DNA of 64,000 bases from Escherichia phage A7_1. Position 1 is the first letter of the stretch. The number at the start of each line of letters is the position of its first letter. Below the pieces are notes generated by a model. That model saw only the letters and a list, made by a program, of their open reading frames with translations, was not told the DNA's origin and did no database searches. The DNA lies in sequence record OP795442. One strand, 5' to 3'. Below, piece by piece: positions 2,218 through 6,871 of the stretch. The translations under genes were made by a program, and so were the position numbers.

Positions 2218-3393
2218 TCAAAACGGAATATCGTCGTCAAAATCCATATCATCTACAGACATATTTACATGTCCTTCAATATCAGGGGTAGGTGAATCTT
2301 CTGCTGACGGAGTTAACTGCGGTTCCGGCTCAGGTTTCTTTTCCTCTTGCTTAGGAGTTGAAGCACCGTTACGGATCTTATCTTCCAATTGACAGATGAA
2401 TCGGAAATTCTCTTCAGTCTTAGCAATAAAGGTTTCGATATTGTCACGACCCCAACGGGCAGAAAGAATGCCACACTGGCCTAAACGAGCACCGAAAGAG
2501 TAATCATCCATAGATTTAAACTCTTCACGCAGTTTTGCTTTGATCGAATCCATCGCTGCAAGAACTTGTTCTACGATCACACCCTGATTTGCAATAGTTT
2601 CATCAGGGAACATTGCATCGGTAATAGACAGTGCATTACCTAAACGAATAGGTAGATCATCTTTACCTTTACCTGAACGTGATCCTGTTCCAGTACTTGC
2701 ACCTTTTGGACCGTAAGCTTTAAAGCCTGTAACCGTACCATCATCTGAACGAACACCTGCAATACGACCACCTTCTGTAATCTGACCCGCCTGTTCATCA
2801 GTGAGGTTTACAGTAACTTCTGTGCCGTCTTCCAGCTTAACAACTACCTTATTGCCTTCAATAGATGTGATATCACCATAAATCTTCTTAGCTGCACCAC
2901 CAGACGGCTTTTGCTGCTGTTGGGAACCACTTGATTGCTGCTGTTTCTGACGAGGCTCACGAGCACCGGATGCGTCAGTAATTTTGATACGTGCTTTCTT
3001 ACCTTCTGTAGAAGAACCTTGACTACCATCTTCTTTGGTATAGGTCTTGATAACAACAGGTAAACGAATTTTCATACCCTCTTTAAGATCAGTGTAACCA
3101 CCTTCAGGATTTTTAATCTGGAACTGATTCTCATACTTCAGGTTTTTAACTTCACCCTCACCAAAAGAAATCCATGCTTGATCTTCACCTTCTTTAAGAA
3201 GAACCGCATAGCGGTGGGTATTGTTAATGCTTTTCTGCTGACCAGTATTCTTGTCTTTGAAGGTAGTCACTCGTGGGCTACCATCTTCATTAATACGTTT
3301 GATCATGATACGTTCAATCGTACCTGCTGCAATGTTTACTGTGGTATCGGAAACAGCATCGTATACAGCATTGATAACTTTAACTTCAGACAT
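2218..3393 (-). CDS. SSB-like DNA-binding protein with acidic C-terminal tail
   Basis: 391 aa ending DMDFDDDIPF, the acidic tail typical of SSB proteins; Gln/Gly/Ser-rich linker; the N-terminal domain is not obviously an OB fold to me. Confidence 0.6.
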   Translation of the reverse strand: MSEVKVINAVYDAVSDTTVNIAAGTIERIMIKRINEDGSPRVTTFKDKNTGQQKSINNTHRYAVLLKEGEDQAWISFGEGEVKNLKYENQFQIKNPEGGYTDLKEGMKIRLPVVIKTYTKEDGSQGSSTEGKKARIKITDASGAREPRQKQQQSSGSQQQQKPSGGAAKKIYGDITSIEGNKVVVKLEDGTEVTVNLTDEQAGQITEGGRIAGVRSDDGTVTGFKAYGPKGASTGTGSRSGKGKDDLPIRLGNALSITDAMFPDETIANQGVIVEQVLAAMDSIKAKLREEFKSMDDYSFGARLGQCGILSARWGRDNIETFIAKTEENFRFICQLEDKIRNGASTPKQEEKKPEPEPQLTPSAEDSPTPDIEGHVNMSVDDMDFDDDIPF

Positions 3394-3476
3394 TTAAATC
3401 TCCTTTAACTATTGAACACACCACTTAAGGCCGAGAAACTATATTACAACTAACTTATTTGAATTGCAAATAACTT

Positions 3477-3857
3477 TTAGAGATAAACTCGCTTAACTTT
3501 TTCATGAACATTATCAAACAAAGTGTTGATCATCTGCAAGTCTTTAATAAGTTCTTCCGTAAATTGTTCTTCTTTGTGAGCAAACACACGAGAACGGTCA
3601 ATGTTTACGGGATCTGCACTTTGGTCACCAGACAGGTCGAAAATGTCGATACCAATACGAGCACGACCTTTTTCAATCTTATTCTCATCATCAATACCAT
3701 AAACACTCATGATTTGCATTTCACGATCTTCTTCACTGTTTGTGTAAATGATCGTCGTATTCAAATTCTTAACACCATCGTAAATGTGAATGTTACGTGT
3801 CGCAGAGATAGGAATCCAATCAGCAACCAAATAATCTTTACCGTCGAAAATACTCAT
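3477..3857 (-). CDS. hypothetical protein
   Basis: Track ORF, 126 aa, fits leftward gene packing. Confidence 0.5.
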   Translation of the reverse strand: MSIFDGKDYLVADWIPISATRNIHIYDGVKNLNTTIIYTNSEEDREMQIMSVYGIDDENKIEKGRARIGIDIFDLSGDQSADPVNIDRSRVFAHKEEQFTEELIKDLQMINTLFDNVHEKVKRVYL

Positions 3858-3911
3858 CTTCTTTCCTCTTTTGTTTAAGTGGGGCCATTATGCCCCACAC
3901 TTAACTTTCTG

Positions 3912-4499
3912 TCAAGGACGTTTCGGTGGACTAACGACACCTTTTTTAGATAAAGGTAATTCGTCTGCATCTTTTCCACGAAGAGATTCTAGCCACTCAT
4001 CTAAAGACAGGGGTACTTTACCATCACCTTTGGACCATACAGATAAGCAATACAGATCGTATGCAGATGGACCTCGATCACCTTTGTCACCATTCAACCC
4101 TTTTAAACTATCCAGCCAATCCTTCTCATTTAGTGGGATAGCGCCAGGATCTTCTTTACGAAGAACTCTCAGGTATGTTTCATAAGCAGACTCTCCACGG
4201 GGACCAATTGGACCAGGTAAACCTTGCGGTCCCTTTGCATACTCAAGACACTTAGAATCTAAATATGCAGACTTTGAACCATCATTAACCACTGAAACTT
4301 TATACAATGACCAAGCCAACAGAACTATCCAACAAGCAAACAATGCAAGCGGGTAAGGGATCATTGAAGTAAAGAATGACAGGGCTAAAATTACAACCTT
4401 GTTCTTGTGATCACGACGGAAAGCGATGATCACAGGGGCTAACCAGATAGCAAAGATAACCCACGCAGATAAGATAAACAACCAACTAATGTATTCCAT
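3912..4499 (-). CDS. membrane protein, superinfection-immunity-like N-terminus plus two short collagen-like G-X-Y segments
   Basis: Two N-terminal TM helices around an FRRDHKNK motif; GPQGLPGPIGPRGES and GLNGDKGDRGPS each followed by SAY(E/D). Confidence 0.6.
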   Translation of the reverse strand: MEYISWLFILSAWVIFAIWLAPVIIAFRRDHKNKVVILALSFFTSMIPYPLALFACWIVLLAWSLYKVSVVNDGSKSAYLDSKCLEYAKGPQGLPGPIGPRGESAYETYLRVLRKEDPGAIPLNEKDWLDSLKGLNGDKGDRGPSAYDLYCLSVWSKGDGKVPLSLDEWLESLRGKDADELPLSKKGVVSPPKRP

Positions 4500-4687
4500 T
4501 AAGCCTCCTCAGTATCGTCTTTAAAGTAATCTAACATCCAACTCTCTACAGGTTTCGCATAGTAACCTGTTCGCCCTTTCTTTTGGAACTCCATAACAAT
4601 TTCATTTGCAATACTTTTTGTGATTGCGATCCCGATTAGTGCTCCACCAGGACCCATTACTGCGTGTGAACTAAAAACATTACTCAT
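4499..4687 (-). CDS. hypothetical small protein
   Basis: Track ORF, 62 aa, start overlaps the upstream stop. Confidence 0.45.
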   Translation of the reverse strand: MSNVFSSHAVMGPGGALIGIAITKSIANEIVMEFQKKGRTGYYAKPVESWMLDYFKDDTEEA

Positions 4688-4750
4688 ATTTAACCCCCTT
4701 TATTCTCTCCGCAACCGACAAGAAGAAGTATACATAAAATGATTAACCTC

Positions 4751-4908
4751 TTCAATAGCTACCTCCAAAATATTTTGTAGCCTCTACTGCAAATATTGTC
4801 CCAAGTATGAACCATGTCGCACTTAGCACGTTGAAAGGTAAAAACCTCGATCCTGCAAGAGAAACCATAATAAAAAATGTTACAAAAATCTCTGGAGAAA
4901 TCATCATT
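4751..4908 (-). CDS. small hydrophobic protein (about 52 aa, not in track)
   Basis: Hand-translated MMISPEIFVTFFIMVSLAGSRF...; ATG overlaps the stop of 4904..5305 (ATGA); approximate coordinates. Confidence 0.4.
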
Positions 4909-5305
4909 GTTTGATAGCCCCTTTGGCAATCATCTCGTCAAGTTCATCTTCCGCACGACACATGATTTGGTAGATAGTTTCTGGATTGTTTAAGAATTCT
5001 GTGTACTTCTTGATACGACAAACTAAACGTGCACGAACTTTACGCTCACGGGCCACATGATTAAAGTAATGTCCCTTTTGTCTGTAGACCCAAGCATAAT
5101 ATACAGTTTTTGCTCTCTGGCGATCAGAACCTAAACGTTCAGCTAATTCCGTGTACGGGTCATTGTTGGTTGGACCAAACAAAAATATTTCTGCAAAACT
5201 TTCCTTCATGATACGAGCTTCTTCATCCGTAACTCGCGGACATTCTTCAGAACCGTAACGTGGGGTTTTAGTGGCATTTGGCTTCTTAGGGTATACTTTA
5301 CGCAT
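4904..5305 (-). CDS. hypothetical protein
   Basis: Track ORF, 133 aa. Confidence 0.5.
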   Translation of the reverse strand: MRKVYPKKPNATKTPRYGSEECPRVTDEEARIMKESFAEIFLFGPTNNDPYTELAERLGSDRQRAKTVYYAWVYRQKGHYFNHVARERKVRARLVCRIKKYTEFLNNPETIYQIMCRAEDELDEMIAKGAIKQ

Positions 5306-5372
5306 TTCATCACTCCTCTAATTAAAACTCTTACTCCCGATGTGAGGAGCCTTTCGGCCCCTCCCTTAAATA

Positions 5373-5981
5373 TCAATCACAACTGCTTGAAGAACTGCTA
5401 CTGCTACTATCCGAAGAATAACTATCGTAAGATGATGAGCTATCATACGAACTTGATCGACTTGAAGAACAGTAAGAACTTGAACTACTTGTACGATCTT
5501 CACTGGATGACATTACGGCAGCATACGTTGCCACACCACCTAAAGCTGCCACCTGAGGATCAACCTGGCTAGTTCCATATCCGTTTGGAGAGTCGCTCAT
5601 TTTACGTGGCGCTGCCCGACGTGCCTGATCAATATATTGTCGCTTTGCCTTCGGTGGTAATTTCTTACCTTGAGCATAAGACGGCAGTTCAACACCCTTC
5701 AGTTGTTCATCCAAAGGTTTCGGCGGCGTAGCCTGTGATTTTGGTCGTTCAACAGAGATATCAACAACCTTCATCGTCTTATCTTTGATGTTTAACCCAA
5801 CCAATACCTCATTTTCTTTTAATGGTTCTTCCAGATCGCGTGTTTCAACTGGACCGAATTTAACGCTTTCAGTTTCCTGACGCTGTTCGGCCTGCTTTGC
5901 AATATACTTGTCGATCGCCGCAGTTTCTACTTCCAGCGGAATAAACAGTGATTTTACCCAAGCAACAAACTTCTTGATCAT
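5373..5981 (-). CDS. hypothetical protein with Ser/Tyr/Asp low-complexity C-terminal tail
   Basis: 202 aa; last ~45 residues are about 70% Ser. Confidence 0.5.
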   Translation of the reverse strand: MIKKFVAWVKSLFIPLEVETAAIDKYIAKQAEQRQETESVKFGPVETRDLEEPLKENEVLVGLNIKDKTMKVVDISVERPKSQATPPKPLDEQLKGVELPSYAQGKKLPPKAKRQYIDQARRAAPRKMSDSPNGYGTSQVDPQVAALGGVATYAAVMSSSEDRTSSSSSYCSSSRSSSYDSSSSYDSYSSDSSSSSSSSSCD

Positions 5982-6202
5982 ACTCTTTCTCCTTTTTCAT
6001 CAATAACAATCAGTGGCTCAATAACTAAAAGACGTTGCTTCATAAGACTTTTTATAGTCTCATCAATGTCAGACAGAAGAATATCTTTTTGACCTTCTAT
6101 CCAATTGAGTGCTGCCTTTTCTGAAACAAATGCAATACCTTCTTGACCAATATCCCATTCACAGAATACTTTATACACCATCATCTTCTCCCTTGTCAAC
6201 AT
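5978..6202 (-). CDS. hypothetical protein
   Basis: Track ORF, 74 aa, overlaps neighbours by 4 nt. Confidence 0.45.
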   Translation of the reverse strand: MLTREKMMVYKVFCEWDIGQEGIAFVSEKAALNWIEGQKDILLSDIDETIKSLMKQRLLVIEPLIVIDEKGERV

Positions 6203-6488
6203 TATTCGGGTTAAGTTTCTTTTCTGCGGCCTTCAAAATAATATCCAGCTTTTCAATTTCCTTATGTAAAGGCTCAGATAATAACTTCTCACCAAAAAGC
6301 CAGAATTTCTTCATGCCTTTCTTAACGCACTTTCCCATAAAGCCCGCGAGGTCTTCTAGTCGCCAAGCAATAAAACTAAATATTGCAGCTAAAAGGTGAA
6401 TCAAGGCCAGCAGTAAACGATGCGGGTTTAGTACAGCAAGGCACAGGATCATAAAGATTATTTTAGTAAAACCCCAAATAATTTTCAT
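6171..6488 (-). CDS. small membrane protein
   Basis: 105 aa with two hydrophobic helices. Confidence 0.45.
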   Translation of the reverse strand: MKIIWGFTKIIFMILCLAVLNPHRLLLALIHLLAAIFSFIAWRLEDLAGFMGKCVKKGMKKFWLFGEKLLSEPLHKEIEKLDIILKAAEKKLNPNNVDKGEDDGV

Positions 6489-6871
6489 TCGTAATTGATC
6501 TCCACTTTAACAATTTTACCAGTTTTATCATTGAATACTTCAATATCGTAGTATTCAATAACACCTTCATCATCAAAAGAACTTTTTTGTTTGCAAGGTG
6601 ATACCCAAAAACCGTGGATTACTGCCTCCTCCAGTCCGTCGGTATGTGATACAACACTCAATGTCGGGTAAGGAACCATAATAGGTTTTACCTCACCACA
6701 ACCACACGTACAGCAAAATACTTCATCTTCTTCCAGTTGGTACAGTCGCTTTTCTGGAACAAAAGTCAGATGCGCCAAAGGATATTTAGAAACGATGGCA
6801 TTAATATAAGGCTTTCCTGCCAAGCTGTCAATAAAATCATTAAATTCTTTTCTATTTTTTGATAATCTCAT
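6485..6871 (-). CDS. hypothetical protein with Cys cluster
   Basis: 128 aa; CCTCGCGE motif; 4-nt overlaps with neighbours. Confidence 0.5.
   Translation of the reverse strand: MRLSKNRKEFNDFIDSLAGKPYINAIVSKYPLAHLTFVPEKRLYQLEEDEVFCCTCGCGEVKPIMVPYPTLSVVSHTDGLEEAVIHGFWVSPCKQKSSFDDEGVIEYYDIEVFNDKTGKIVKVEINYE

What the first reader, a model, noticed from the sequence alone, without database searches (positions are those of the whole stretch)
3912..4499. Superinfection-immunity-like membrane protein with two collagen-like G-X-Y segments
The N-terminus has two TM helices around an FRRDHKNK loop, resembling Imm-type superinfection immunity proteins. The C-terminal half carries GPQGLPGPIGPRGES and GLNGDKGDRGPS (five and four G-X-Y triplets), each followed by SAY(E/D). 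Collagen-like triple-helix segments are not usual for an early membrane protein.
Basis: partly seen in the sequence, partly recalled or inferred. Interest (0 to 1): 0.5.

Follow-up and report, generated by a model that had tools for sequence, protein, structure and literature searches.

The report
Imm-like membrane protein with collagen stalk
A phage gene encodes a relative of the T4 "Imm" protein (which stops a second phage from injecting its DNA), here extended by a short collagen-like stalk built from tail-fibre repeat modules and ending in a conserved peptide; this architecture has not been described and its function is untested.

Summary
Window 3912-4499 (minus strand) is a real 195-aa gene of a Vequintavirinae E. 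coli phage. Residues 1-72 are a divergent but genuine Imm_superinfect (T4 Imm, PF14373) domain: hhalign probability 97.6-97.8%, score 64.5 against a maximum of 16.5 for 200 column-shuffled controls. The window protein itself stays below Pfam's gathering score.

The two G-X-Y runs are not isolated. Each leads into a helix-loop-helix "SAY(E/D)..(D/E)WLxSL(K/R)G" module. The same module occurs in up to 21 matched stretches per protein in giant tail-fibre-like proteins and in exported bacterial proteins.

The gene belongs to a family of about 43 sequence clusters, found only in Certrevirus, SSBI34 and Septuagintavirus-type phages. All share an Imm anchor, a strand motif, 3-13 G-X-Y triplets, zero to two modules, and a nearly invariant tail G(K/R)DADE(I/L)PLSxxGV. 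Only the window's clade has two modules. The gene is under purifying selection (pN/pS about 0.2).

Most likely it is an inner-membrane superinfection-exclusion protein with a trimeric periplasmic stalk. Function, topology and trimerisation are inferred, not shown. I rate it a new variant of a known kind, of moderate interest.

The parts
3912..4499 (-). Complete ORF, 195 aa plus stop: Imm-like anchor, collagen/SAY-module stalk and conserved tail
   Evidence: Homologues of 91-96% identity are annotated 'hypothetical protein' in phages LTH01, A73, W70, A5-4 and UPEC06. pN/pS is 0.16-0.24.
4504..4509 (-). Shine-Dalgarno AGGAGG. The ATG at 4497-4499 overlaps the stop of upstream ORF 4499..4687 by one base.
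   Evidence: Read directly from the sequence and the ORF table.
4284..4499 (-). Residues 1-72: divergent Imm_superinfect (T4 Imm-like) membrane domain. It comprises helix 2-29, the basic loop RRDHKNK (28-34, window 4398-4418), and helices 34-46 and 48-72 kinked at P48.
   Evidence: - PHROG 1039 E=1.1e-5.
- PF14373 E=0.0017.
- hhalign probability 97.6%, with shuffle control.
- AF2 pLDDT 84-90.
- P22 and N33 are invariant; A26, R29 and H31 are at least 90% conserved.
4233..4301 (-). Residues 67-89: post-membrane strand-like motif KVSVV (equivalent to PEVVVVQ / PQYVYVQ in homologues and PNQVIII in T4 Imm), then a degenerate third SAY element (77-79). This is the most variable stretch among close relatives.
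   Evidence: Alignments. pN/pS is 0.45-0.52 against UPEC06, and A73 has a 5-aa deletion here.
4188..4232 (-). Residues 90-104: collagen-like run 1, GPQ GLP GPI GPR GES (5 triplets)
   Evidence: G90, G93 and G96 are invariant in the family. The Pfam Collagen model is hit by 12 of 31 members.
4098..4190 (-). Residues 104-134: repeat module 1, SAYETYLRVLRKEDPGAIPLNEKDWLDSLKG (helix-loop-helix)
   Evidence: AF2 helices 105-116 and 125-133. There is 40-47% identity to multi-copy modules in 400-2800-aa proteins and tail-fibre PHROG hits.
4065..4100 (-). Residues 134-145: collagen-like run 2, GLN GDK GDR GPS (4 triplets)
3975..4067 (-). Residues 145-175: repeat module 2, SAYDLYCLSVWSKGDGKVPLSLDEWLESLRG (helix-loop-helix)
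   Evidence: AF2 helices 146-157 and 166-173. Single-module relatives P0029, P0033, P0035, P0163 and P0168 carry the equivalent module directly before the tail.
3915..3977 (-). Residues 175-195: family-wide conserved C-terminal peptide GKDADELPLSKKGVVSPPKRP
   Evidence: P182, L183, S184 and G187 are invariant; D177, A178, D179, E180 and V188 are at least 90% conserved. The tail is present in 42 of 43 cluster representatives. It shows no non-synonymous change among close relatives.
3887..3915 (-). Promoter-like TTGACA-17-CATAAT overlapping the 3' end of the ORF. It probably serves the downstream DUF7325 gene (3477..3857).
   Evidence: Consensus scan only, 11 of 12 matches. DUF7325 assignment.

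Best explanation
The gene encodes an inner-membrane protein that most likely protects the infected cell against superinfection by related phages, as T4 Imm does.

**Shown here.**
- The first ~72 residues are homologous to the Imm_superinfect/T4 Imm domain. This includes the arginine equivalent to T4 R33 and the strand-like motif that follows the membrane helices.
- The rest is a family-specific extension: short collagen-like G-X-Y runs, zero to two tail-fibre-type helix-loop-helix modules (two in this phage), and a nearly invariant ~20-residue C-terminal peptide.
- The whole gene is under purifying selection.

**Inferred.**
1. Topology is N-out, basic loop in the cytoplasm, C-terminal extension in the periplasm.
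2. The extension trimerises into a thin collagen/helical-bundle stalk. A rough estimate from a 0.29 nm rise per residue is about 3 nm in the shortest relatives and 13-16 nm here.
3. The membrane domain binds the incoming tape-measure protein and blocks channel formation, as reported for T4 Imm. The stalk adds avidity by holding three Imm domains together, and/or presents the conserved terminal peptide to a periplasmic partner such as the incoming tail tip or an envelope component.
4. The loop that contacts the tape measure in T4 (W50) is remodelled by a 6-residue insertion with a conserved proline. This fits specificity for a different tape-measure protein.
For: **Homology to Imm.**
- Database matches: PHROG 1039; PF14373 sub-threshold for the window protein but hit by 19 of 31 homologues.
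- Weak tblastn hits of residues 1-71 fall almost only on genes annotated as superinfection immunity genes.
- Profile-profile comparison:
  - hhalign gives probability 97.6%, E=2.9e-12.
  - The rerun score is 64.5, against a shuffled mean of 9.6 (sd 1.9, maximum 16.5) and 17.1 for the reversed profile.
  - Against T4 Imm alone, hhalign gives 81%, E=1.2e-5.
- Shared residues and motif:
  - T4 R33, needed for exclusion (preprint 10.64898/2026.03.06.709160), aligns with the nearly invariant R29.
  - The post-membrane VhVhV motif is shared with T4, Erwinia, Acinetobacter and bacterial PF14373 proteins.
- UniRef already labels the CR8 and PBES02 homologues 'Superinfection immunity protein'.

**Mechanism of the prototype.** T4 Imm binds the tape-measure protein gp29 and its N-terminus is periplasmic.

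**Topology.**
- Across 31 members there is no K or R before helix 1, a mean of 3.9 K/R in the loop, and 1.6 in the 15 residues after helix 2.
- Some PF14373 proteins carry a cleavable signal peptide before the domain, which places the domain's N-terminus outside.
- The module occurs in virion fibres and in about 28 of 148 signal-peptide or lipoprotein-type proteins.

**Real, constrained extension.**
- The glycines and the tail are invariant.
- pN/pS is about 0.2 and the tail is unchanged among close relatives.
- There are 376 representative proteins sharing the module.

**Context.** The gene sits in a same-strand block of small genes with DNA-replication genes further along. The position is syntenic in relatives. 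No holin or defence-system families are hit.
Against: - No functional data exist for any family member.
- The window protein scores 18.7 bits against a PF14373 gathering score of 27.9. BLASTP to T4 Imm alone gives E=0.12.
- PF14373 is a large family of small membrane proteins in which, to my knowledge, only T4 Imm has been tested. Homology therefore predicts function only loosely.
- T4 W50, important for exclusion, is not conserved.
- The second hydrophobic region is broken at P48 into helices of 13 and 25 residues. It could be re-entrant, which would put the extension in the cytoplasm.
- Runs of 4-5 triplets are far shorter than known stable bacterial collagens. The AF2 monomer leaves the G-X-Y runs and the tail disordered (pLDDT below 50).
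- Trimerisation was not modelled.
- Stalk length varies about five-fold in the family, which argues against a fixed-distance ruler.
Confidence: 0.55

Rival explanations
1. Same protein, different topology. The second hydrophobic region (helices 34-46 and 48-72, kinked at P48) is a re-entrant hairpin, so the collagen/SAY extension and conserved tail are cytoplasmic. They would act there, for example by tethering a cytoplasmic phage or host factor to the membrane.
For: - AF2 splits the second hydrophobic region at the nearly invariant P48.
- In T4 Imm the corresponding loop (W50) lies between 'helices 2 and 3' and contacts the tape measure. That is compatible with a hairpin whose tip reaches the periplasmic face.
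- The very C-terminus is basic (KPRK).
- Phage tail fibres that carry these modules fold in the cytoplasm.
Against: - The positive-inside count favours only the 28-34 loop as cytoplasmic.
- A 13-residue helix cannot span half a hairpin comfortably.
- Modules of this type are otherwise found in extracellular or exported proteins.
- Signal-peptide-bearing PF14373 relatives fit a simple out-in-out path.
Confidence: 0.15
2. An envelope-modifying or receptor-side exclusion protein rather than an Imm-type injection blocker. The Imm-like helices serve only as a membrane anchor. The conserved terminal peptide on its stalk binds peptidoglycan, an outer-membrane receptor or a Tol/Ton-type component. This would alter adsorption, tail penetration or lysis timing, analogous in logic to T4 Spackle or T5 Llp.
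For: - The most conserved part outside the anchor is the terminal peptide, present in 42 of 43 representatives. This suggests a specific binding partner.
- The family evolves by changing stalk length and modules.
- T4 uses a separate periplasmic protein (Sp) against the tail lysozyme (PMC7677548, listed).
Against: - The anchor conserves Imm-specific residues: P22, N33 and the nearly invariant R29 and H31. A mere anchor would not need them.
- No known binding motif was recognised in the tail.
- The peptide pattern found no relatives in 185,579 bacterial and archaeal species genomes.
Confidence: 0.12
3. A lysis-related small membrane protein, such as a holin, antiholin or lysis-timing regulator, rather than an exclusion factor.
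For: It has two hydrophobic helices with a short charged loop. A review notes that T4 Imm itself 'reportedly molecularly resembles a holin' and that imm mutants affect lysis inhibition (PMC6832632).
Against: - No holin family appears among the 20 PHROG hits at E<=1.
- The gene lies among small genes of unknown function next to a 391-aa SSB-tip-bearing gene. No recognisable endolysin or spanin is among the neighbours examined at 2218-6871.
- A 130-residue fibrous extension is not a holin feature.
Confidence: 0.08
4. An evolutionary accident. A fragment of a tail-fibre gene was fused by recombination to a small Imm-like gene, and the extension has no function of its own.
For: - The modules are clearly of tail-fibre type.
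- Synonymous divergence between the window and A73 is confined to codons 71-175, a sign of mosaic exchange.
- Module number varies from 0 to 2.
Against: - pN/pS is 0.19-0.23 in the module region.
- The reading frame is intact in every relative.
- The collagen run plus tail is present in all 43 representatives, including those without modules.
- The tail downstream of the modules is invariant.
- There is no DNA-level repeat indicating a recent event.
Confidence: 0.04

Closest known systems
T4 Imm (gene imm, NP_049660; Pfam PF14373 Imm_superinfect)
   Same: - Two long hydrophobic helices around a short basic loop.
- The motif P-x-(I/V)-I-A-x-x-R-x-H-x-N, with the T4 R33 equivalent conserved.
- W57 and W63-S64 in helix 2.
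- A strand-like VhVhV motif after the membrane part.
- A phage gene lying among non-structural genes.

   Evidence: Mechanism of the prototype.
   Different: - T4 Imm is 83 aa and ends shortly after the strand motif. The window protein adds about 125 residues (collagen runs, two modules, conserved tail).
- It has a 6-residue insertion with a conserved proline at the loop holding T4 W50.
- It scores below the Pfam gathering score.
- Its function has not been tested.
Other PF14373 proteins of phages and bacteria (55-121 aa, some with a signal peptide, SHOCT or zinc-ribbon additions)
   Same: The same membrane domain is retrieved by the joint profile, with hundreds of hits. The post-membrane strand motif is shared.
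   Different: Among the 120 best hits, only the Vequintavirinae family combines PF14373 with collagen (PF01391). None of the nine longer PF14373-only hits I read carries the GKDADEIPLS tail.
Tail-fibre and exported proteins carrying the repeat 'G-X-Y ... (K)SAYE(L/I)Y..G.TPLSxxEWLxSLKG'. Examples: Listeria phage LPJP1 QXN67846 (5 copies), metagenomic P0100 (15 matched stretches), and P0102 with the Phage_tail_C domain.
   Same: The module sequence and its alternation with short G-X-Y runs are shared, at 40-47% identity.
   Different: - Those are long (median 740 aa) virion fibres or signal-peptide and lipoprotein-type proteins with many copies.
- Here two copies sit on an Imm-type membrane anchor.
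- The phage's own genome relatives have no other copy of the module (one matching place per record).
- The adjacent tail-fibre gene of A73 lacks the module.
Prophage collagen-like side-tail-fibre proteins of E. coli O157:H7 (EPclA/B; Ghosh et al. 2012, PMC3368898)
   Same: These are phage-encoded, non-hydroxylated collagen-like segments in an E. coli phage. They trimerise with the help of flanking helical and C-terminal trimerisation domains (abstract).
   Different: Those are soluble virion proteins with much longer collagen domains and different flanking domains (PfN, PCoil, PfC). They have no membrane anchor. No sequence relation was detected here.
Other injection-stage exclusion proteins: T4 Spackle (periplasmic inhibitor of the gp5 lysozyme), HK97 gp15 (tape-measure-directed) and P22 SieA
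   Same: The proposed stage of action is the same: blocking genome entry at the envelope. HK97 gp15 and T4 Imm both target the tape measure.
   Different: No sequence similarity was found to any of them. The idea that the stalk adds a Spackle-like periplasmic function is speculation.

Membership tests
Imm_superinfect (PF14373) / T4 Imm | Scores at or above Pfam's gathering score (27.9 bits) | tested here: not met
   The window protein scores 18.7 bits, E=0.0017, covering model positions 1-26 of 42. The individually listed homologues reach 24-25 bits over the full model. 19 of 31 match at E<=0.01, best 3.8e-6.
Imm_superinfect (PF14373) / T4 Imm | Profile-level homology to experimentally characterised T4 Imm and its annotated relatives | tested here: met
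   - hhalign of the family profile against T4 Imm plus four Imm proteins gives probability 97.6%, E=2.9e-12 over 52 columns.
- The rerun scores 64.5, against a shuffled maximum of 16.5 and 17.1 for the reversed profile.
- Against T4 Imm alone it gives 81%, E=1.2e-5.
- PHROG 1039 matches at E=1.1e-5.
Imm_superinfect (PF14373) / T4 Imm | Two long hydrophobic helices, a short basic connecting loop, conserved P..IIA..R.H.N and W...W(S/A) motifs | tested here: met
   R29 corresponds to T4 R33. The exception is a 6-residue insertion in the second hydrophobic region, and T4 W50 is not conserved.
Imm_superinfect (PF14373) / T4 Imm | Small single-domain protein (about 55-120 aa) | tested here: not met
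   The protein is 195 aa with a roughly 125-residue extension. The top 120 joint-profile hits are 55-127 aa.
Imm_superinfect (PF14373) / T4 Imm | N-terminus periplasmic, located in the inner membrane | not testable with these tools
   The evidence is only indirect: positive-inside counts and signal-peptide-bearing relatives. The T4 topology is cited. The primary paper (Lu et al. 1993) is not held in the library.
Imm_superinfect (PF14373) / T4 Imm | Excludes superinfecting phage by blocking DNA entry and binds the tape-measure protein | not testable with these tools
   This needs plating, DNA-entry and co-purification experiments. The tape-measure gene was not looked for in this window.
Bacterial/phage collagen-like proteins (PF01391) | Uninterrupted G-X-Y repeats reaching the Pfam gathering score (27.2 bits) | tested here: not met
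   The window protein scores 14.3 bits, E=0.034, with runs of only 5 and 4 triplets. 12 of 31 relatives hit the model, best E=6.5e-8. Family members carry 3-13 triplets.
Bacterial/phage collagen-like proteins (PF01391) | Glycine at every third position conserved in evolution; proline-rich X/Y positions | tested here: met
   G90, G93 and G96 are invariant and P91 is at least 90% conserved. Run 1 reads GPQ-GLP-GPI-GPR.
Bacterial/phage collagen-like proteins (PF01391) | Forms a trimeric triple helix | not testable with these tools
   Only monomer prediction is available, and the G-X-Y runs have pLDDT below 50.
Tail-fibre 'SAYE...EWLxSLKG' repeat module (no Pfam model) | Roughly 30-residue unit: (S)AY(E/D)xY ... 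P(L)(S/T)xx(E/D)WLxSL(K/R)G, preceded by G-X-Y triplets | tested here: met
   - There are two full units plus one degenerate SAY.
- phmmer of residues 68-195 finds 376 representatives at E<=1e-3, with up to 21 matched stretches per protein; the best non-family hit has E=1.2e-79.
- The units were read directly in P0100, P0103, P0123 and LPJP1.
Tail-fibre 'SAYE...EWLxSLKG' repeat module (no Pfam model) | Part of a virion fibre or secreted surface protein | tested here: not met
   Here the modules are attached to a two-helix membrane anchor in a 195-aa protein encoded among non-structural genes.
Holins | Match to a holin family; gene located in a lysis cassette | tested here: not met
   No holin PHROG appears among the 20 hits at E<=1. 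All nine neighbouring genes are of unknown function, and none is recognisable as an endolysin or spanin.

The most novel reading that the evidence does not exclude
The family is a new type of superinfection-exclusion device: a trimeric periplasmic fibre rooted in the inner membrane by three Imm domains. Its collagen/helical-bundle stalk is built from modules borrowed from tail-fibre genes and exchanged by recombination. The stalk holds a conserved terminal peptide out into the periplasm, where it captures the incoming tail tip (tape measure, tail lysozyme or tube end) before it reaches the membrane. One protein would then combine what T4 divides between Imm and Spackle, with stalk length tuned in an arms race between related phages.
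Probability: 0.15. Interest if true: 0.75.

Novelty: new variant of a known kind. Interest (0 to 1): 0.5.

Why it matters
T4 Imm has been known since the 1980s. Only a 2026 preprint proposes that it works by binding the tape-measure protein. Nothing is known about how the very large PF14373 family varies on that theme.

This family offers a natural experiment. The same anchor carries an add-on of graded length (0, 1 or 2 modules; 3-13 collagen triplets) and a fixed terminal peptide, in lytic phages of E. coli, Cronobacter, Pectobacterium, Enterobacter and Salmonella that are easy to handle.

If the stalk is periplasmic and trimeric, it would be a rare case of a collagen-like structure in the Gram-negative periplasm. 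It would also be a case of tail-fibre shaft modules reused for defence against other phages.

There is a practical side too. Several relatives were isolated on pathogens such as Cronobacter, Salmonella and Pectobacterium, and phages of this kind are candidates for therapy or biocontrol. Exclusion genes affect how such phages can be combined in cocktails.

Tried and rejected
**Searches that found nothing useful.**
- Sequence search of the extension (residues 76-195) and of a multi-module protein (P0103) against all PDB chains found nothing meaningful. No solved structure of the module is known to me.
- Foldseek of the AF2 model against BFVD and PDB returned only the near-identical homologue (A0A8T8L7J9) and noise. 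The full-length monomer model (pTM 0.27) is unsuitable as a fold query.
- A literature search for motif strings such as SAYEIA or WLASLKG hit only surnames.
- A search for 'collagen-like' plus 'superinfection immunity' found no relevant paper.
- Lu et al. 1993 on Imm topology is not held in the library.
- The scan of 185,579 bacterial and archaeal species genomes for the tail pattern found no relatives. The viral-contig scan found only 4 loci.
- PADLOC gave no hit. NCBIfam gave only weak collagen-adhesin and KCU-star hits.

**Ideas rejected.**
- Recent internal duplication: there is no DNA repeat at the 123-nt module spacing.
- The protein mimics the phage's own tail fibre: the relatives have a single module-bearing locus per genome, and the adjacent A73 tail-fibre gene has no G-X-Y or SAY motif.
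- Real homology to Sel_put (PF04328): those hits have no individually significant stretch and look like summed weak repeat matches.
- Holin: see the rival explanations.
Full report
**1. What is there**

The finding's coordinates hold a single ATG-to-TGA ORF of 195 codons on the minus strand, at 3912..4499. It has an AGGAGG ribosome-binding site at 4504-4509. Its ATG overlaps the stop codon of the upstream 62-codon ORF by one base.

- Two long hydrophobic helices flank the loop F-RRDHKNK.
- GPQGLPGPIGPRGES is residues 90-104 (five triplets).
- GLNGDKGDRGPS is residues 134-145 (four triplets).
- These are followed by SAYE and SAYD.

In the six-frame translation of the whole 64-kb window there are only three runs of four or more G-X-Y triplets. 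Two are in this ORF. The motifs SAY[ED] and WLxSL[KR]G occur nowhere else.

There is a third SAY at residues 77-79. Each SAY opens a roughly 31-residue unit that ends in WLDSLKG or WLESLRG. The feature lies on the minus strand.

**2. Where the window comes from**

The region is 92-96% identical in DNA to Escherichia phages A73, W70, vB_EcoM-LTH01, UPEC06 and A5-4. These are 137-145-kb Vequintavirinae; one source names the group Septuagintavirus. In all of them the gene is annotated 'hypothetical protein'.

The gene lies in a long same-strand block of small genes.
- Downstream is a DUF7325 gene (3477..3857).
- Next is a 391-aa protein (2218..3393).
- A divergently transcribed tail-fibre region lies just beyond.
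- DNA polymerase genes lie further along the same strand.

**3. The N-terminal domain is a divergent Imm domain**

The window protein alone gives modest matches.
- PF14373 Imm_superinfect: E=0.0017, 18.7 bits, below the gathering score of 27.9.
- PHROG 1039 'immunity to superinfection': E=1.1e-5 over residues 7-67.
- BLASTP to T4 Imm: E=0.12.

The signal becomes clear at family level.
- Homologues from CR9, DU_PP_I and SSBI34 hit the full PF14373 model at about 2e-5.
- 19 of 31 aligned members hit it at E<=0.01.
- Weak tblastn hits of residues 1-71 land almost only on genes annotated as superinfection immunity genes in T4-like, Ounavirinae and Acinetobacter phages.
- A profile of five family N-domains, compared by hhalign with a profile of T4 Imm plus four annotated Imm proteins, gives probability 97.6%, E=2.9e-12 over 52 columns.

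Membrane helices can inflate such scores, so I ran controls.
- The real comparison, rerun, scores 64.5.
- 200 column-shuffled versions of the Imm alignment give a mean of 9.6, sd 1.9, maximum 16.5.
- The reversed alignment gives 17.1.
- T4 Imm alone as template still gives 81%, E=1.2e-5.

The alignment pairs T4 R33 with window R29, which is at least 90% conserved in the family. A 2026 preprint reports that T4 Imm binds the tape-measure protein gp29, that R33A and W50A weaken exclusion, and that the N-terminus faces the periplasm. T4 W50 lies in the loop where this family has a 6-residue insertion with nearly invariant S45 and P48. The putative contact loop is therefore remodelled.

The similarity also continues past the membrane part. 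T4 PNQVIII, Erwinia PQKVILV, Acinetobacter NQTVIV and bacterial GTVVINQ or VQHIYVQ align with the family's PEVVVVQ, PQYVYVQ and (in the window) KVSVV.

AF2 with the family alignment models residues 1-72 confidently (pLDDT 84-90). It gives helices 2-29, 34-46 and 48-72.

**4. The extension and the family**

A profile search of 5.8 billion proteins, plus an all-against-library phmmer search, gave 43 cluster representatives of 103-195 aa. All are from phage genomes or metagenomic contigs. In the phage collection the family is confined to Certrevirus (CR3, CR8, CR9, PBES02 and Pectobacterium, Enterobacter, Pantoea and Klebsiella phages), Salmonella phage SSBI34 and the window's clade. A scan of 185,579 bacterial and archaeal species genomes found no relative.

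The common architecture is:
- an Imm anchor;
- a strand motif;
- (G-X-Y)3-13, with G90, G93 and G96 invariant;
- zero (34 representatives), one (6) or two (3, the window clade) SAY modules;
- the tail G(K/R)DADE(I/L)PLSxxGV(L/V)KPRK, present in 42 of 43, with P182, L183, S184 and G187 invariant.

The joint Imm profile retrieves hundreds of PF14373 proteins of 55-127 aa. Only this family combines PF14373 with collagen.

**5. What the modules are**

Residues 68-195 match 376 representative proteins at E<=1e-3.
- Most are 400-2800 aa, with up to 21 matched stretches at 40-47% identity.
- Reading them shows a repeat '(G-X-Y)n-(K)SAYE(L/I)Y..VP.G.TPLSxxEWLxSLKG'.
- A related form, 'SAYELAKLAGFSGTEAEWLASLKG', occurs five times in a Listeria phage LPJP1 protein.
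- One carrier has a phage tail-tip domain.
- The window protein also hits several tail-fibre PHROGs.
- About 28 of the 148 best carriers start with a signal peptide or lipoprotein signal.

The module is thus a shaft element of extracellular fibres. It has no Pfam model. The PF04328 and KCU-star hits look like summed weak repeats. No sequence match to any solved structure was found.

AF2 predicts each module as helix-loop-helix: 105-116 with 125-133, and 146-157 with 166-173 (pLDDT about 55-71). By analogy with helical trimerisation domains that flank phage and bacterial collagens (PMC3368898, plus my own knowledge of the streptococcal Scl2 V domain), three such hairpins could form a bundle that registers the short triple helices. 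This is inference.

The relatives of this phage have only one module-bearing locus per genome. The neighbouring A73 tail-fibre gene lacks the motifs. The protein is therefore not a copy of the phage's own fibre.

**6. Selection and mosaicism**

Against A73 and UPEC06 the ORF has pN/pS of 0.16-0.24. The G-X-Y plus module region is at 0.19-0.23. The tail has no amino-acid change.

Between the window and A73 there are no differences at all in codons 1-70 and 176-195, but 29 differences in codons 71-175. The middle has therefore been exchanged or evolves separately.

The single-module protein P0168 starts like module 1 (GESAYETY) and ends like module 2 (SLRGKDADE). This fits unequal recombination between modules. 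No DNA-level repeat links the two modules, so the duplication is old.

**7. Topology**

Across 31 members the segment before helix 1 has no K or R and one or two acidic residues. The loop has 3-5 K/R (mean 3.9). The 15 residues after the second hydrophobic region have 1.6 K/R on average, roughly balanced by acidic residues in most members.

Some PF14373 proteins carry a cleavable signal peptide before the domain, and the T4 Imm N-terminus is reported to be periplasmic. A simple out-in-out path puts the extension in the periplasm. This agrees with the extracellular habit of the module.

The caveat is the break at P48. It could make the second region re-entrant and the extension cytoplasmic. I give that about 15%.

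**8. Most likely mechanism**

The protein is probably an Imm-type exclusion protein. It would be made in the infected cell and inserted in the inner membrane. There it would block the tape-measure-mediated DNA channel of a related incoming phage, as proposed for T4 Imm.

The extension is likely a trimeric periplasmic stalk that clusters three Imm domains and/or presents the conserved terminal peptide to a partner.

- **Shown:** homology, architecture, conservation and selection.
- **Inferred:** function, topology, trimer state and partner.

The five-fold variation in stalk length argues against a fixed ruler.

The rivals are a cytoplasmic extension, receptor-side or envelope action, a lysis role, and a functionless fusion. 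They are weighed in the Rival explanations section.

**9. Comparison with what is known, novelty and verdict**

It works like, and is homologous to, T4 Imm. It fails two formal membership criteria: the Pfam gathering score and the small single-domain size. Its loop equivalent to T4 W50 differs.

UniRef already labels two short homologues 'Superinfection immunity protein', so the Imm link is not new to databases. I found no paper that links collagen-like sequence to superinfection immunity.

The combination of Imm anchor, collagen-like runs, tail-fibre modules and conserved tip appears undescribed. I classify it as a new variant of a known kind.
- Interest: 0.5.
- Confidence in the proposed function: 0.55.
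- Confidence in the domain homology: about 0.9.

Noticed in passing
window 2218..3393 (-): This 391-aa protein (phrog_4477, unknown function, no Pfam SSB hit) ends in ...VDDMDFDDDIPF. From my own knowledge, that is the same acidic tip as the C-terminus of E. coli SSB, which recruits many host replication and repair proteins. It may be a phage SSB or a competitor for SSB-tip partners.
   Followed up: partly
window 3477..3857 (-): The DUF7325 gene just downstream has essentially the same phage distribution as the Imm-collagen gene. It is found in 28 records, drawn from the same Certrevirus, SSBI34 and Septuagintavirus-type phage groups. It stays next to, or one gene away from, the Imm-collagen gene. 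This may be a functional pair or simply shared ancestry.
   Followed up: partly
window 3879..3915: A near-consensus sigma-70-like promoter (TTGACA-17-CATAAT, minus strand, 3915..3887) overlaps the stop codon of the ORF. A GC-rich stem-loop (3879-3898) sits within it. On the minus strand it is not followed by a T-run, so it is not a canonical terminator.
   Followed up: no
window 3975..4301 (codons 71-175 of the ORF): All 29 nucleotide differences between the window and phage A73 in this gene fall in codons 71-175. Codons 1-70 and 176-195 are identical. This is a sharp mosaic boundary that suggests recombinational exchange of the stalk.
   Followed up: partly
window 5373..5981 (-): This 202-aa protein (phrog_13005, unknown function) ends in a roughly 45-residue serine-rich low-complexity tail (SSSSSSYCSSSRSSSYDSSSSYDSYSSDSSSSSSSSSCD).
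   Followed up: no
window 4098..4190; also proteins P0102 and P0103: The SAY module gives sub- or near-threshold hits to Pfam Sel_put (PF04328) and NCBIfam KCU-star, which are YbdD-like small proteins. From memory, the resemblance is (D)Y(D/E)xYV...P..P(M/L)(T/S)xEE(F/W). It is probably summed weak repeat matches, because no single stretch passes.
   Followed up: partly
proteins P0182 and P0241: Small non-Imm proteins also carry two SAY modules. P0182 has a single-pass membrane anchor and P0241 has a lipoprotein-type signal (LASC). Membrane-tethered mini-fibres with this module therefore appear to have arisen more than once.
   Followed up: no
loci L003 and L004 (Cronobacter phages PBES02 and CR9): In these Certrevirus phages an extra gene of about 215-220 aa (ADU18_0145, CR9_037) sits between the Imm-collagen gene and the DUF7325 gene. 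It is absent from the window and from DU_PP_I.
   Followed up: no
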